The notes under the pieces: generated by a model | Databases searched by the model: none | What the model saw: only the letters and a program-made list of their open reading frames with translations | Told to the model about the DNA's origin: nothing | Shown: piece after piece, positions 1 to 4,312 of the stretch | How positions within the stretch are numbered: the stretch's first letter is position 1 | How the letters are laid out: the number at the start of each line of letters is the position of its first letter | Position numbers and translations under genes: made by a program | NCBI GenBank assembly: GCA_964350235.1 | Contig: CAYGKI010000002.1 | Span: 5,974-31,426 of the forward strand | Reading direction: 5' to 3' | Source of the DNA: an uncultured Gemmatimonadaceae bacterium | Lineage (GTDB): Bacteria; Gemmatimonadota; Gemmatimonadetes; Longimicrobiales; Gaopeijiaceae | DNA length: 25,453 nucleotides

Positions 1-1401
1 CTCGTGCAGATACTCACCCACCCCGTCGCCGAGCACCTGTAGGACCCTCCGTCCCACGCACCAGTACATCTCCTCGGTGGCCGCCCGCGACGTGATGTCC
101 ATGTAGCCCAGGTTGAAGAGGCTCATGGCCTCTTCGAAGGCGTGCGCGGCGTCGTTGAAGAGCTCGAGGGGATCCAGCTCCTCCGGGTCGGCGGAGTCCA
201 TGCGCTGGTAGGCGTCGAGGATGTCGCGCAGCGGCTGGGGAACGGTCTCCGCCGCCATCGCCCGCTCCATGAGCTTCTCGTTGGGGGTCTCGGGAAGGCG
301 CCTGGTGGCCACCGCCTCGCAGATGATGGCCGTGCAGTGGCTGACCAACGCCCGACCCGACTCGGAGAAGATGTGCGGGGGCCGGATCTCGGCATCGTCG
401 CAGATGGCCTTGATCCGGTGCACCACGTCCAGGGCGTACTGCTCGACGGTGTAGTTCGAGGAAGCGGGGCTCGCCGACTGGGTCCCGTCGTAGTCGACGC
501 CCAGACCTCCACCCAGGTCGAGCATCCCCATGGGCGCACCCTGCTTCACCAGCTCCGCGTAGAGGTGCGTGACCTCGCTCACCGCGTACTTCACGGTACG
601 GATGTCGTAGATCTGGGACCCGATGTGACAGTGCAGGAGTCGCAGCGAGTCCAGAAGATCGTGCTCCTTGAGATAGTCCACCGCCTGGAGGACCTCGCTC
701 ACCGACAGCCCGAACTTGCCCCGCAGGCCGGACGACGTGGCCCAGCGCCCGATGCCACCGGCACCCAGACGCGCCCGTATTCCGATGTTCGGCCGAACCT
801 TGTGAGCCTTCGCCTGCTTGGCGATGAGCTCGAGCTCGTGGAACTGCTCCACCACCGGGATGACGTTGCGCCCCATCTTCGCCGCGAGGATCACGGTCTC
901 GATGAACTCGTCGTCCTTGAAGCCGTTGCACACCAGGGGCATGGAGTTACGGCCCACGGTGAGGGCGAGACCGGCCAGCAGCTCCGGCTTGGACCCCACC
1001 TCGATCCCGAAGTCCAGTTCCCCGGCGAAGCGCACCACCGCCTCGCACAGCTGCCGCTGCTGGTTCACCTTGATGGGATACACGCAGGAGTAGCGGTTGC
1101 CGTACCCGGTCTCCTCGATGGCCGTGGCGAAGGCGTCCCTCAACTGGGTCATCCGGTGACGCAGAAGGTCCGGGAAGCGCAGGACCACCGGGGCCGTAAG
1201 ACCTCGGGTCTCCAGGCCCTCGATGATCTCCAGGAGATCGAGGGAAGGCCCGTCTGGCCCGCTGGGCCGGACGGTCAGCGTGCCTGAGCTGGAGATGCCG
1301 AGGTAGCCGTCGCCCCACTCCTCGAACCTGTAGGTCTGGGCTGCGTCGGCGGTGGTCCATTCCGTGGACCGTTCCGGCATGGCGGTGGCCACTTCACTCA
1401 T
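1..1401 (-). CDS. speA: Biosynthetic arginine decarboxylase (PLP-dependent, fold type III); 3' part lies outside the window
   Basis: Absent from the ORF track because it runs off the edge. Manual translation from ATG 1401 gives MSEVATAMPERSTEWTTADAAQTYRFEEWGDGYLGISSSG...LRFPDLL...YPIKVNQQR (PLP lysine)...GSKPELLAGL...CNGFKDDEF...KFGLS...LLHCHIGSQI...DLGGGLGVDYDG...LFNLGYMD, still open at position 1. GAGG lies upstream of the ATG; alternative in-frame ATG at 1380. Confidence 0.95.
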   Translation of the reverse strand, partial: MSEVATAMPERSTEWTTADAAQTYRFEEWGDGYLGISSSGTLTVRPSGPDGPSLDLLEIIEGLETRGLTAPVVLRFPDLLRHRMTQLRDAFATAIEETGYGNRYSCVYPIKVNQQRQLCEAVVRFAGELDFGIEVGSKPELLAGLALTVGRNSMPLVCNGFKDDEFIETVILAAKMGRNVIPVVEQFHELELIAKQAKAHKVRPNIGIRARLGAGGIGRWATSSGLRGKFGLSVSEVLQAVDYLKEHDLLDSLRLLHCHIGSQIYDIRTVKYAVSEVTHLYAELVKQGAPMGMLDLGGGLGVDYDGTQSASPASSNYTVEQYALDVVHRIKAICDDAEIRPPHIFSESGRALVSHCTAIICEAVATRRLPETPNEKLMERAMAAETVPQPLRDILDAYQRMDSADPEELDPLELFNDAAHAFEEAMSLFNLGYMDITSRAATEEMYWCVGRRVLQVLGDGVGEYLHE

Positions 1402-1522
1402 CGCTCATCCTCGCGCGGTGGGGCCTGGACCGGACCGGCTGGCGGCCCGGGGAGGCGCTCCTCGATATCGTGGAGACCAATATCGCATCCGGCGACCGGA
1501 CGTGTAATGCCACCGGTCCGCG

Positions 1523-1560
1523 AAAAGCCCCCCGACCCCGCTAGGGAGGGGCCGGAGGGC
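1523..1560 (-). terminator. Putative intrinsic terminator on the minus strand
   Basis: RNA gcccuccggcccc-ucccuagc-ggggucggggggc-UUUU: 13-bp stem (1560-1548 with 1539-1527), 8-nt loop, U4 at 1526-1523. Two G-U pairs would be C-A mismatches on the plus strand, favouring the minus strand. The U-tract is short. Confidence 0.6.
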
Positions 1561-1684
1561 GAAGGCGGCATCGCACGGAGCGACCCGCCTGCCAGCCCGC
1601 GGCCCCATGGGCCTGAGGGCGGCGCCTCGCGAGGATCCGCCGTCAGCCCACGGCCACGCCCTCACGATGTCGGAAACATGCTAC
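1523..1684 (-). ncRNA. Candidate ~160-nt structured RNA (sRNA or attenuated speA leader) divergent from the oxyR-like gene
   Basis: Bounded by a predicted promoter (1691-1720) and terminator (1523-1560), with additional hairpins at 1608-1650 and 1563-1590. No known family recognised; the 5' end is inferred from the -10 position. Confidence 0.35.
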
Positions 1685-1690
1685 GACCGG

Positions 1691-1720
1691 AGTGTAGCAC
1701 GTACCGTCATAGGCAGCCAA
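1691..1720 (-). promoter_or_regulatory. Putative sigma70 promoter (extended -10) firing toward speA
   Basis: Minus strand reads TTGGCT (1720-1715), 18-nt spacer, TGnTACACT (TG 1699-1698, TACACT 1696-1691). Confidence 0.55.
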
Positions 1721-1756
1721 TATCAATATCCGATCTATTCCATAGACCTAGCATAT
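1709..1756. promoter_or_regulatory. OxyR/LTTR-type operator overlapping the divergent promoter and the regulator's own start codon
   Basis: AT-rich island reading ATAG-N7-ATAT-N7-CGAT-N7-ATAG-N7-ATAT (1709, 1720, 1731, 1742, 1753). It has 11-bp periodicity, contains T-N11-A boxes, and resembles the OxyR consensus ATAG-N7-CTAT-N7-ATAG-N7-CTAT. Confidence 0.65.
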
Positions 1757-2660
1757 GGATCTCCGCCAGCTGCGCTACTTCGTGGCCGTGGCCGAAGCAG
1801 GAACCATGACCCGGGCGGCCGAACGGTGTCATGTGGCCCAACCCTCCCTCAGCCAGCAGATCGGCAAGCTGGAGCAAGGACTGGGCGTGGCCCTGTTCGA
1901 TCGGCTTGCAAGGGGCGTGGCGCTCACCCCCGCCGGTCACGCGCTGCTTCCCAGAGCCCGGCGTATGCTGGCGGACGCCGAGGAGATCCGTGCCCGCATC
2001 GCGGACGACGTCTCCGATGGCGCGGGGCGATTCGCCGTGGGCGCCATTCCCACCATCGCGCCGTACACCCTCCACCGCGTGCTTCCCCGGCTCAAGGCCG
2101 AATTCCCGCGCGCGGAGATCACCATCCGTGAGGACCTCACGGACATGGTGGCGGAGGCGGTGGAGGACAACCAGCTCGACCTGGCCGTCACCAGCACACC
2201 CATTCGGCGGGACCTCCTGGAAGTGGAGGTGCTCGCGTCCGAGCCTCTGATGCTCGTCCTCCCCGCCGGGCACCCTCTGGGAGAAGCCCCGGCGGTGAAC
2301 CCAGCGGATGTGCGCGACGAGCCCACCATCATCCTTAACGCCATGCACTGCCTGGGAGAGCAGATCCAGGGGTTCTGCGCCCGCTCCGGGATGGCACGGA
2401 GGATCGTCTGCGAGGGGACCCAGCTCGGGACCGTGCTCGAGCTGGTCTCGGCCGGCATGGGCGTTTCCCTCGTGCCACGAATGACCGCCCGCCAGGACTC
2501 CTCTCCGTCGCGCCGCTACCTGCCCTTCCGTGGAGAGGCAGGGCAACGGGACATCGCGCTCATTCGACGCCGCGATCGCTCCGTGTCCAGGGTGGCCCGC
2601 CGCTTCTCCGAGCTGTTGAGGGAGGTCCTCATGGACCCCCCGGACCCAGGCATCGCCTAG
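1755..2660 (+). CDS. oxyR: LysR-family regulator, OxyR (H2O2-sensing) type
   Basis: N-terminal HTH MDLRQLRYFVAVAE...AAERCHVAQPSLSQQIGKLE; GAIPTIAPY; redox motif HCLGEQIQGFC, whose cysteines (codons at 2349 and 2376) fall at residues 199 and 208, as in E. coli OxyR (HCLRDQAMGFC). Confidence 0.85.
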   Translation: MDLRQLRYFVAVAEAGTMTRAAERCHVAQPSLSQQIGKLEQGLGVALFDRLARGVALTPAGHALLPRARRMLADAEEIRARIADDVSDGAGRFAVGAIPTIAPYTLHRVLPRLKAEFPRAEITIREDLTDMVAEAVEDNQLDLAVTSTPIRRDLLEVEVLASEPLMLVLPAGHPLGEAPAVNPADVRDEPTIILNAMHCLGEQIQGFCARSGMARRIVCEGTQLGTVLELVSAGMGVSLVPRMTARQDSSPSRRYLPFRGEAGQRDIALIRRRDRSVSRVARRFSELLREVLMDPPDPGIA

Positions 2661-2679
2661 GCACGCTCCGCGGCGCCTG

Positions 2680-3435
2680 CTAGACCTCGCCGGACGAGAC
2701 CCGCCTGAACACCTCGAGCACGGCCGCCAGCTGCACGGGCGAGGCCTTCACCCACTCGGCCCAGGCCTCGGGTCGATCCTCGGCACGCTCCAGGAGGGCC
2801 TCCACAACGCGCTCGAGGAGATCGAGGACGGCGGGCGCCGCGAGGTTCAGCTTGGGCCAGAGCTCGGCGACCACGTCCAGGGTCTCGCGACTTCGACGAA
2901 AGAGGTCTCCCAGCTCCTGGTCGGTGAAGAACGGTCCCCGGGCGGCGGCGGTCAGGCACCGCCCGAGAAGCTCCACGACATCGTCGTCGAGCTTCCGACG
3001 CAGGATCTTCTCCGACCGGAACTCCAGCACCCGCCCCAGAAAGGTCATCAGCGGATAGACCGCCTCGCCGAGGTGATCCAGGATCACCGGCGGCGCGTCC
3101 CGGGGATAGAGATAGAGTCGGTCCCAGTGCTCGTCCTTCTGGCCGACCTTCTCGGACATCTCCGGCGTGATCCAGTCGTACCCCACCAGGTCCTCGAAGC
3201 GCACGAGATCCAGCCCCCGATCCGCGAGGGCCCGCTGGATACGCCTGGGCGTGACCACCAGCTCGGCACCGTCGGTGGCATGGATCCGTGCCACCGCCCC
3301 GGCGCCCGCCAGGACGTCCTCCTCGCCCAGCGGGCTCCTCGCCACGAGCTCGGCGTTGAGCCGGGGACGCTTGACCTGCGCCTCCTGGAAGATCTCCATG
3401 AGCTGCTCGGTGAGCAGCCAATCCACCATCGTCAT
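2680..3435 (-). CDS. Hypothetical protein (~251 aa)
   Basis: C-terminal part of track ORF 2680..4386 looks like a globular protein from ATG 3435 (MTMVDWLLTEQLMEIF...; alternative ATG 3429) with AGG upstream. The earlier part of the ORF is the antisense shadow of the 3586..4254 gene. Confidence 0.75.
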   Translation of the reverse strand: MTMVDWLLTEQLMEIFQEAQVKRPRLNAELVARSPLGEEDVLAGAGAVARIHATDGAELVVTPRRIQRALADRGLDLVRFEDLVGYDWITPEMSEKVGQKDEHWDRLYLYPRDAPPVILDHLGEAVYPLMTFLGRVLEFRSEKILRRKLDDDVVELLGRCLTAAARGPFFTDQELGDLFRRSRETLDVVAELWPKLNLAAPAVLDLLERVVEALLERAEDRPEAWAEWVKASPVQLAAVLEVFRRVSSGEV

Positions 3436-4262: not shown

Positions 4263-4297
4263 CCGCCCTCCGGCCTCGCCGCGAGGCCGGAGGGCGG
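4263..4297. terminator. Perfect 16-bp GC hairpin between convergent genes; probable bidirectional terminator or 3' stabiliser
   Basis: ccgccctccggcctcg (4263-4278), ccg loop, cgaggccggagggcgg (4282-4297), between the stops at 4254 (+) and 4313 (-). No U-tract on either side. Confidence 0.6.
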
Positions 4298-4312
4298 ACG
4301 GACCCGGTCCGG

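What the first reader, a model, noticed from the sequence alone, without database searches (positions are those of the whole stretch)
1523..1756. oxyR/oxyS-like architecture: OxyR operator, divergent promoter and a terminated three-hairpin ~160-nt RNA
Seen: an OxyR with Cys199/Cys208, an 11-bp-periodic ATAG/ATAT operator, a divergent extended -10 promoter under it, then hairpins at 1608-1650 and 1563-1590 and a 13-bp stem plus U4 at 1523-1560, with no credible ORF. Known: E. coli oxyR is divergent from the sRNA OxyS under a shared operator, and elsewhere the divergent partner is often a peroxide-defence gene. Inference: this is an unrelated peroxide-induced sRNA in the same position. GC-rich DNA folds easily, so the hairpins alone are weak evidence.
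Basis: partly seen in the sequence, partly recalled or inferred. Interest (0 to 1): 0.7.

Follow-up and report, generated by a model that had tools for sequence, protein, structure and literature searches.

The report
OxyR-linked non-coding RNA replacing catalase
Next to a horizontally acquired peroxide-sensor gene (oxyR) in an uncultured Gemmatimonadota bacterium, the slot that related oxyR loci fill with catalase holds a conserved, folded, roughly 160-base non-coding stretch behind an OxyR-type promoter; it is a plausible but untested analogue of E. coli's OxyS small RNA.

Summary
The LysR gene at 1755-2660 is an OxyR: Thr100, His198, Cys199 and Cys208 are present, and its best solved relatives are OxyR proteins. 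Two ATAG-N7-ATAT dyads (1709-1723, 1742-1756) and a TGn-extended -10 (TGCTACACT, 1699-1691, minus strand) lie where 44-60%-identical oxyR loci have the same dyads and the -10 of a divergent catalase gene.

Here there is no catalase and no conserved ORF. About 160 nt follow and end in a 13-bp hairpin (1527-1560), 15 nt upstream of speA's own conserved promoter.

oxyR plus this stretch is a roughly 1.16-kb insertion. It is missing in six same-genus genomes, and I found it in no other genome of the family searched.

Three effective lineages carry it. Between them synonymous sites are near saturation (46-64% identity). The RNA body is 60-74% identical and the hairpin 97-100%.

The consensus fold has four hairpins, not three. 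It is strand-specific (-73 versus -51 kcal/mol) and beats 300 of 300 column shuffles.

There is no Rfam match and no Hfq was found. No RNA sequencing run was available. The U-tract is weak and not conserved. So transcription, termination and action in trans are all inferred, and read-through into speA is a live rival.

This scan has noted similar oxyR-linked RNA candidates in other genomes.

The parts
1755..2660 (+). oxyR: LysR-type peroxide sensor, 301 aa, with Thr100, His198, Cys199 and Cys208
   Evidence: Pfam HTH_1 and LysR_substrate. The best solved relatives are OxyR of P. aeruginosa and C. glutamicum. Residues were read. Homologs at 44-60% identity lie divergent from catalase.
1742..1756 (.). 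OxyR dyad 2, ATAGACCTAGCATAT (ATAG-N7-ATAT), overlapping the oxyR start codon
   Evidence: The same position holds ATAG-N7-CTAT in oxyR-catalase loci when all are anchored at the oxyR ATG.
1709..1723 (.). OxyR dyad 1, ATAGGCAGCCAATAT (ATAG-N7-ATAT). It spans about -39 to -25 of the divergent promoter.
   Evidence: The block ATAGGNNNNCCAATAT is kept in the four close sequences, and ATAG-N3-TCCAATAT-like motifs occur at the same distance from oxyR in catalase-linked homologs.
1691..1699 (-). Extended -10 of the divergent promoter, TGCTACACT. The predicted start is near 1684.
   Evidence: Conserved in all lineages. It lies 12 bp beyond dyad 1, where catalase-linked loci have TATGCT, TACGCT, TAGATT, CACAAT or CATAAT. 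The start site is inferred.
1523..1684 (-). Predicted non-coding RNA of about 162 nt
   Evidence: No conserved ORF. No Rfam match. Covariance model R1 hits only this site in the genome and the four homologous contigs. Both ends are inferred.
1628..1666 (-). Hairpin 1. Its apical part carries the invariant 13-mer CCGUGGGCUGACG (1641-1653).
   Evidence: The 8-bp basal helix has 2 compensatory and 4 one-sided changes and is 90.6% paired. The 13-mer is invariant in all sequences.
1592..1623 (-). Hairpin 2. The sequence varies but the pairing is kept.
   Evidence: Sequence identity between window and L038 is only 0.53, yet 94% of cells are paired, with 2 compensatory and 5 one-sided G-C to G-U changes.
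1564..1589 (-). Hairpin 3, 10 bp
   Evidence: 97.5% of cells are paired. Sequence identity is 0.73-0.92 between lineages.
1523..1560 (-). Hairpin of 13 bp (1527-1560, loop UCCCUAGC) plus UUUU (1523-1526): putative terminator
   Evidence: Identity between lineages is 97-100%, against 46-64% at fourfold sites. It is unique in the genome. It fails the U-tract criterion. A similar hairpin without a U-tract follows a gene at 4265-4298.
1479..1507 (-). speA's own promoter: -35 TTACAC (1507-1502), 17-bp spacer, TGC-GATATT (1487-1479)
   Evidence: Kept upstream of speA in same-genus genomes that lack the oxyR insertion and in all insertion-bearing lineages.
1..1401 (-). speA, biosynthetic arginine decarboxylase. 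The first 467 codons are in the window; the gene runs off its start.
   Evidence: NCBIfam NF003763, E 4.5e-152. Pfam Orn_Arg_deC_N.
1511..2679 (.). Approximate extent of the inserted block, about 1.16 kb: hairpin, RNA, operator and oxyR
   Evidence: In six same-genus genomes the homolog of the 249-aa gene (window 2680-3429) lies directly upstream of speA, with no oxyR between. OxyR is missing from 312 of 313 other family genomes.

Best explanation
A lineage of Gemmatimonadota acquired a 1.16-kb block by horizontal transfer. The block lies between a conserved 249-aa gene and the speA promoter. It holds oxyR, its operator, and the OxyR-dependent divergent promoter that drives catalase in related loci.

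Behind that promoter there is now a non-coding RNA gene of about 160 nt instead of catalase.

Proposed mechanism (inferred):
1. OxyR binds the two ATAG-N7-ATAT dyads.
2. When Cys199 and Cys208 are oxidised by H2O2, OxyR activates the TGn-extended -10 promoter. This promoter has no usable -35.
3. The transcript folds into four hairpins.
4. It ends, at least partly, at the invariant 13-bp hairpin 15 nt upstream of speA's own -35.

I take the product to be a peroxide-induced regulatory RNA. It would be a functional analogue of OxyS, unrelated in sequence and Hfq-independent. It probably arose in the place of a lost catalase gene.

Shown: the layout, the homology of operator and promoter, the insertion, the conservation, and the strand-specific conserved fold.

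Inferred: transcription, induction, the 3' end, and action in trans.
For: - OxyR identity.
- The operator dyads and the divergent -10 lie at the same distances from the oxyR ATG as in 44-60% homologs. Their partner is catalase in 8 of 12 such loci examined.
- The insertion is missing from six same-genus genomes, where the 249-aa gene abuts speA.
- OxyR was found in 1 of 313 other family genomes, at only 41% identity.
- The RNA model hits 0 of 150 other family genomes.
- The same layout occurs in three effective lineages.
- Fourfold-site identity is 0.46-0.64. The RNA body is 0.60-0.74 identical and the terminal hairpin 0.97-1.00.
- 94.7% of cells are paired, against 45-52% when the partners are slid. 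Four pairs show compensatory changes, against 0-3 in the slid controls.
- The consensus fold energy is -73.2 kcal/mol, against -51.4 for the reverse complement. Each single sequence folds 8-13 kcal/mol better than its reverse complement.
- Column-shuffle z is -5.0, with 0 of 300 shuffles as good.
- No conserved ORF. No remnant of catalase was detected.
- speA keeps its own conserved promoter just downstream.
- Precedent: OxyS replaced a peroxidase gene that was divergent from oxyR (PMC8825220).
Against: - There are no expression data of any kind.
- There are only three effective lineages, so covariation has little power. The structure was also derived from the same sequences it is tested on.
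- Without the terminal hairpin the fold signal is modest and barely strand-specific: z -2.7 against -2.1.
- The U-tract is short, fails the terminator scan, and is not conserved. A discrete 3' end at 1523 is therefore uncertain.
- No Hfq was found in this genome or in 12 relatives.
- No target is known.
- The total invariance of the hairpin, loop included, is more than a terminator needs and remains unexplained.
Confidence: 0.45

Rival explanations
1. Cis-acting leader. The OxyR-dependent promoter is a second, peroxide-inducible promoter for speA. The structured 160 nt would then be a long 5' leader whose hairpin only attenuates or stabilises the transcript. Peroxide stress would raise arginine decarboxylase and hence polyamine synthesis.
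For: - The promoter, the RNA and speA all lie on the minus strand, only 120 nt apart.
- The tail after the hairpin is UUUU, UUUCUC or GUUCUC. It fails the terminator scan.
- Canonical hairpin-plus-U terminators are not enriched in this window: 2 found against 3.9 expected.
- The arrangement with speA is kept in all three lineages.
- From general knowledge, not tested here: polyamines protect E. coli against oxidative stress.
Against: - speA has its own promoter (TTACAC-N17-TGCGATATT). It is conserved both in genomes without the insertion and in those with it.
- The neighbourhood may simply reflect where the block happened to land.
- Folding transcripts truncated before the hairpin's 3' arm gives no consistent anti-terminator pairing across lineages.
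- No known leader or riboswitch family matches.
Confidence: 0.25
2. Relic plus insulator. The stretch is the leftover of a lost catalase gene (5' UTR, 3' end and terminator). It is still transcribed from the OxyR promoter but has no function of its own. Only the hairpin is selected, to keep OxyR-driven transcription out of the speA promoter.
For: - Catalase occupies this slot in homologous loci.
- The hairpin is by far the most conserved element, and it lies at the edge of the insertion, 15 nt from speA's -35.
- The body is only moderately more conserved than fourfold sites, and its fold z is modest.
Against: - The 13-mer in hp1 is invariant and hp3 is 73-92% identical, while fourfold sites are saturated.
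- hp2 keeps its pairing through compensatory and G-U changes although its sequence diverges.
- No similarity to catalase is detectable.
- A plain insulator does not need an invariant loop.
Confidence: 0.2
3. DNA-level or plus-strand element. The conserved blocks would be protein-binding DNA sites, or part of a long oxyR 5' UTR, and not a minus-strand RNA.
For: The hairpin is an imperfect DNA palindrome upstream of the speA promoter, and invariance of sequence is typical of protein-binding sites.
Against: - 25 of 188 paired cells are G-U. These would be A-C mismatches on the other strand.
- The reverse complement folds much worse.
- The hairpin is missing upstream of speA in relatives without oxyR.
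- The oxyR dyad overlaps the oxyR ATG, which leaves no need for a long oxyR leader.
Confidence: 0.07

Closest known systems
OxyS sRNA with oxyR of Enterobacteriaceae (Rfam RF00035); origin described by Krieger et al. 2022 (PMC8825220)
   Same: - A non-coding, multi-hairpin stretch divergent from oxyR under a shared OxyR operator, ending in a hairpin.
- It occupies a slot that related genomes fill with a peroxide-detoxifying gene.
- It would therefore inherit OxyR control.
   Different: - No sequence or structure match to RF00035.
- About 160 nt with four hairpins, against 109 nt with three.
- The gene replaced is a catalase, not a peroxiredoxin-glutaredoxin.
- No trace of the parent gene is detectable.
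- No Hfq was found in this genome or in 12 relatives, 6 of them in the same genus.
- The whole unit is a horizontally acquired insertion in Gemmatimonadota.
- Expression is untested.
oxyR-catalase divergent loci, seen here in Phycisphaerales-type and Terriglobales metagenome bins (L064, L069, L105-L109, L042)
   Same: - OxyR of the same subfamily, 44-60% identical.
- The same two dyads, one overlapping the oxyR ATG.
- A -10-like hexamer 12 bp beyond dyad 1.
   Different: - The divergent product there is a catalase of 440-500 aa after a 127-180-nt spacer.
- Here it is a non-coding 160 nt followed by an unrelated gene, speA.
C-rich (UCCC-motif) Hfq-independent sRNAs of Firmicutes such as RsaE/RoxS. 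This resemblance is recalled from memory and was not tested.
   Same: - A redox-linked regulator is presumed.
- The invariant hairpin loop UCCCUAGC and the arm CCCUCCGGCCCCUCCC are C/U-rich and could pair with Shine-Dalgarno sequences.
- The host appears to lack Hfq.
   Different: - No homology.
- The C-rich arm is buried in a 13-bp stem.
- No target was predicted or tested.

Membership tests
OxyS (Rfam RF00035) | Match to the RF00035 covariance model | tested here: not met
   cmscan of 1200-2000 on both strands at E up to 10 gave no OxyS hit, only chance matches of 13 bits or less to unrelated families.
OxyS (Rfam RF00035) | Gene divergent from oxyR under a shared OxyR operator | tested here: met
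   The dyads at 1709-1723 and 1742-1756 lie between the oxyR ATG (1755) and the divergent -10 (1691-1696).
OxyS (Rfam RF00035) | Induced by H2O2 through OxyR, giving a discrete small transcript | not testable with these tools
   No RNA sequencing run could be listed.
OxyS (Rfam RF00035) | Acts in trans with Hfq | tested here: not met
   Pfam PF17209 (Hfq) was not found in G000 (75% complete) or in 12 relatives, 8 of them at least 90% complete. Action in trans was not tested.
OxyS (Rfam RF00035) | Derived from the 3' end of the peroxide-defence gene it replaced (PMC8825220) | tested here: inconclusive
   Catalase occupies the slot in homologs. However, tblastn, nhmmer and the covariance model find no similarity between the RNA and catalase loci. 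Synonymous sites are already saturated among the close lineages, so a relic would probably not be recognisable.
OxyR (LysR-type peroxide sensor) | HTH_1 plus LysR_substrate domains, with redox Cys199 and Cys208 and pocket residues Thr100 and His198 | tested here: met
   Pfam. HCLGEQIQGFC at 198-208 and PT100 were read. The top solved relatives are 4x6g and 6g1b, both OxyR.
OxyR (LysR-type peroxide sensor) | Reaches the NCBIfam OxyR equivalog cut-off | tested here: not met
   NF008361 scores 174 bits against a cut-off of 329. CynR, GltC and CidR models score similarly, all below their cut-offs. The call as OxyR rests on residues, solved relatives and the catalase context.
Intrinsic (Rho-independent) terminator | G+C-rich stem-loop | tested here: met
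   A 13-bp stem with 2 G-U pairs and an 8-nt loop.
Intrinsic (Rho-independent) terminator | U-rich tail directly after the stem | tested here: not met
   Only UUUU follows. The scan, which needs 5 T in 8, finds no terminator. The tail is UUUCUC in L037 and GUUCUC in L038.
Riboswitch or attenuator leader of speA | Known family match, or a conserved pair of mutually exclusive terminator and anti-terminator foldings | tested here: inconclusive
   No Rfam match. Truncated-transcript folds give different alternative pairings in each lineage.

The most novel reading that the evidence does not exclude
A peroxide-responsive regulatory RNA arose independently in Gemmatimonadota from, or in place of, a catalase gene beside a horizontally acquired oxyR. 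It works without Hfq. Through its placement it also couples OxyR to polyamine synthesis (speA) by regulated read-through. This would be a second-phylum, non-homologous re-run of the route by which OxyS arose, and the regulator-plus-RNA unit would be transferable as a module.
Probability: 0.2. Interest if true: 0.65.

Novelty: new variant of a known kind. Interest (0 to 1): 0.42.

Why it matters
If this RNA is real, it is an independent, non-homologous case of a regulatory RNA taking over the promoter slot of a lost peroxide-defence gene next to oxyR. That is the route proposed for the origin of OxyS, here seen in a barely studied phylum with no Hfq. The regulator and RNA appear to have arrived together by horizontal transfer. 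This would support the view that sRNAs recurrently arise from regulon members and so inherit their regulation. It would also give a compact, clonable unit of 1.16 kb with which to test that. On present evidence it is a reasonable candidate, not a demonstrated RNA.

Tried and rejected
- **Rfam at permissive threshold:** nothing relevant.
- **Catalase remnant in the spacer:** tblastn with word size 2 gave only chance hits, E at least 0.03 in a tiny database.
- **JGI metagenome scans:** the exact hairpin pattern gave 0 hits. A pattern for the RNA core gave 26 hits, none homologous by nhmmer and none next to an OxyR homolog.
- **Genome-contig scan with OxyR:** only distant homologs were found.
- **Sequencing runs:** no RNA holder was listed.
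- **Laying Logan contigs of four DNA runs:** this gave only window-like and L035-like variants, with no new lineage.
- **Lookups that returned no DNA:** P0004, P0006 and P0249. Whether the 92%-identical speA contig carries the insertion could not be told.
- **Second OxyR site in the genome:** a search for the half-site ATATTGGNNNCCTAT gave one other exact hit. It lies in NrdR-type boxes before a class II ribonucleotide reductase and is a chance match.
- **RNAduplex of the RNA against the speA leader:** uninformative, because long G+C-rich sequences pair regardless.
- **Small-protein reading:** one frame is open in all four sequences. This is expected at this G+C content. There is no Shine-Dalgarno sequence or shared start codon, and L038 has +1 and +2 indels.
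- **Hairpin as a repeated element:** it is unique in the genome.
- **Conserved anti-terminator:** not consistent between lineages.
- **Genome-wide target prediction:** not attempted. There are no gene calls, and three incomplete lineages cannot provide a conservation filter.

Full report
**Layout**

- The minus strand at 1-1401 encodes the N-terminal 467 residues of biosynthetic arginine decarboxylase, SpeA (NF003763, E 4.5e-152).
- The plus strand at 1755-2660 encodes a 301-aa LysR-type regulator.
- The 353 nt between them (1402-1754) hold the finding.
- Downstream of the regulator, convergent with it and only 19 nt from its stop, lies a conserved 249-aa gene without a Pfam domain (2680-3429, minus strand). 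The 568-aa ORF listed there is an over-extension; homologs and gene calls on related contigs give 249-251 aa.

**The regulator is an OxyR**

- It carries HCLGEQIQGFC, which gives His198, Cys199 and Cys208. It also has Thr100 and Thr129.
- Its best solved relatives are full-length OxyR of P. aeruginosa (4x6g, E 3e-36) and C. glutamicum (6g1b).
- It stays below every NCBIfam equivalog cut-off. The OxyR model scores 174 bits against 329, and CynR, GltC and CidR score alike. The assignment therefore rests on residues, solved relatives and context.
- The context is telling. Of 12 homolog loci at 41-60% identity that I examined, 8 have a monofunctional catalase as the divergent neighbour, 127-180 nt away.

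**Operator and divergent promoter**

I anchored 16 loci at the oxyR ATG. This shows a shared architecture:
- One ATAG-N7-(A/C)TAT dyad overlaps the start codon (window 1742-1756).
- A second dyad lies 33 bp further (window 1709-1723, ATAGGCAGCCAATAT).
- 12 bp beyond that is a -10-like hexamer for the divergent gene. It reads TACACT in the window (1696-1691, preceded by TGC, so an extended -10). In catalase-linked loci it reads TATGCT, TACGCT, TAGATT, CACAAT or CATAAT.

Dyad 1 covers the -35 position, where the window has only TGGCTG. That fits an activator-dependent promoter. That ATAG-N7-CTAT is the OxyR half-site pair is established knowledge of E. coli OxyR, recalled and not tested here.

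**What follows the promoter**

There is no catalase.
- tblastn with catalases against the spacers gives only chance hits.
- nhmmer and the covariance model find nothing in common with catalase loci.
- No ORF is conserved. One frame is open in all four sequences, but that is expected at about 72% G+C. There is no Shine-Dalgarno sequence or shared start codon, and L038 carries +1 and +2 indels.
- Rfam at E up to 10 gives nothing relevant.

**An insertion**

- SpeA is 84-90% identical in six same-genus genomes, but none has oxyR nearby. In them the homolog of the 249-aa gene (76-91% identity) ends 130-200 nt upstream of speA, in the same direction.
- Homology to the window resumes at about 1510, at the motif TTACAC-N17-TGCGATATT. 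This motif is conserved upstream of speA across the genus and is a sigma-70-type promoter with an extended -10.
- On the other side, homology stops right after the stop codon of the 249-aa gene.
- So about 1511-2679 (1.16 kb: hairpin, RNA, operator and oxyR) is an insertion.
- OxyR of this type was found in only 1 of 313 other genomes of the family, at 41% identity. The RNA model was found in 0 of 150.
- SpeA relatives are labelled Gemmatimonadota and Longimicrobiales. The nearest outside OxyR homologs (up to 60%) are mostly labelled Phycisphaerales. This points to horizontal acquisition.

**Relatives that carry the unit**

Metagenome contigs L035 and L036 (OxyR 96%), L037, L096 and L097 (89%, nearly identical to each other) and L038 (89%) all have speA, a 353-355-nt spacer and oxyR. 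That makes three effective lineages. Further candidates (P0004, P0006, P0249) returned no DNA.

**Conservation against a neutral yardstick**

| Segment | Window vs L035 | Window vs L037/L096 | Window vs L038 |
|---|---|---|---|
| Fourfold sites in oxyR and speA | 0.76-0.84 | 0.53-0.64 | 0.46-0.50 (near saturation) |
| RNA body, 1684-1561 | 0.90 | 0.74 | 0.60 |
| hp1 | 0.95 | 0.77 | 0.69 |
| hp3 | 0.88 | 0.92 | 0.73 |
| Terminal hairpin, 1560-1523 | 1.00 | 0.97 | 0.97 |

- The 13-mer CCGUGGGCUGACG at the top of hp1 (1641-1653) is invariant.
- hp2 diverges freely (0.53 between window and L038).
- The body is thus conserved block-wise and moderately above background. Free gap placement inflates non-coding identity somewhat.
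- The hairpin is conserved far beyond what a stem alone needs, loop included.

**Structure**

- RNAalifold on the four distinct sequences gives four hairpins: hp1 1628-1666, hp2 1592-1623, hp3 1564-1589 and the terminal hairpin 1527-1560.
- 94.7% of cells are paired, against 45-52% when the partners are slid.
- Four pairs have compensatory changes (two in hp1, two in hp2), against 0-3 in the slid controls. There are many G-C to G-U changes.
- 25 of 188 paired cells are G-U, which would be mismatches on the other strand.
- The consensus energy is -73.2 kcal/mol, against -51.4 for the reverse complement. Each single sequence folds 8-13 kcal/mol better than its complement.
- Column shuffling gives z = -5.0 (0 of 300), against -2.6 for the complement. 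Without the terminal hairpin the values are only -2.7 against -2.1.
- The structure was derived from the same four sequences, and three lineages give little statistical power. This is suggestive, not proof.

**The 3' end**

- The hairpin is followed by UUUU in the window and L035, by UUUCUC in L037 and by GUUCUC in L038. The terminator scan rejects it.
- Canonical terminators are not enriched in 20 kb of this window: 2 found against 3.9 expected by chance.
- A perfect hairpin with no U tail, sharing the arm GCCCUCCGGCC, sits between two convergent genes at 4265-4298. Hairpins without a U-tract may therefore be the local way of ending transcripts.
- The hairpin is unique in the genome. It ends 15 nt before speA's -35.
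- Whether it stops transcription fully, partly or not at all cannot be told.

**Interpretation**

- The best reading (0.45) is an OxyR-activated non-coding RNA gene in the catalase slot. It would be an analogue of OxyS, which itself replaced a peroxidase gene divergent from oxyR and kept OxyR control (PMC8825220).
- It would have to work without Hfq, which was not found in G000 or in 12 relatives.
- Rival 1 (0.25): the same promoter feeds speA through a leaky hairpin, which would make polyamine synthesis peroxide-inducible. The two readings are not exclusive.
- Rival 2 (0.20): a relic whose hairpin merely insulates the speA promoter. The invariant 13-mer, hp3, and the pairing kept in the fast-evolving hp2 argue against a pure relic.
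- Rival 3 (0.07): a DNA-level or plus-strand element. The strand asymmetry makes this unlikely.
- No consistent anti-terminator was found.
- A crude search for further OxyR sites found none; the only other exact half-site match lies in NrdR-type boxes.
- G000 (75% complete) has KatG fragments at contig ends but no PF00199 catalase.

**Novelty**

- The layout is the known oxyR/oxyS kind.
- The RNA is a new, narrowly distributed family, in another phylum, in a catalase slot, inside a transferred block next to speA.
- Earlier notes of this scan describe comparable oxyR-linked RNA candidates in Kordiimonas, Phenylobacterium and a Chitinophagaceae genome. I did not test those. They gave me the lead to the Krieger paper, which I read.
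- Interest is moderate. This is a sound candidate with a clear test, but it has no expression evidence and only three lineages.

Noticed in passing
window 1402-1510 (minus strand): The speA promoter (TTACAC-N17-TGCGATATT, 1507-1479) and its roughly 65-nt leader are 76-87% identical between lineages whose synonymous sites are saturated. The leader holds a palindrome, CGATAT-N12-ATATCG (1463-1486), overlapping the -10 and start region, and a G+C-rich hairpin before the Shine-Dalgarno sequence. This may be an undescribed regulatory site for arginine decarboxylase.
   Followed up: partly
window 4265-4298: A perfect hairpin with no U-tract (CCGCCCTCCGGCCTCGC GGCG ...) lies between two convergent genes. 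It shares the arm GCCCUCCGGCC with the finding's hairpin. This suggests that 'I-shaped' terminators are used in this organism.
   Followed up: partly
window 2658-2682: oxyR and the 249-aa gene converge with only 19 nt between their stop codons here. Gene calls on L035, L037 and L096 show them overlapping by 4-18 nt. There is no terminator between them, so antisense read-through or transcriptional interference is likely.
   Followed up: no
window 2680-3429 (minus strand): A conserved 249-aa protein with no Pfam or NCBIfam match, 76-91% identical across the genus, always lies upstream of speA. The 568-aa ORF listed by the ORF tool is an over-extension.
   Followed up: partly
L099 (G000:C111) 1180-1230: Two NrdR-type boxes (ACAACATATTGGGGT and CACCCAATATCCGGT) overlap a strong TTGACC-N17-TATAGT promoter upstream of a class II ribonucleotide reductase with a TSCPD domain.
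   Followed up: partly
L066 3001-3930 and upstream: One 58%-identical OxyR homolog is divergent from a 489-aa protein with no Pfam hit that appears to be signal-bearing, not from catalase. This may be an unrecognised member of the OxyR regulon.
   Followed up: no
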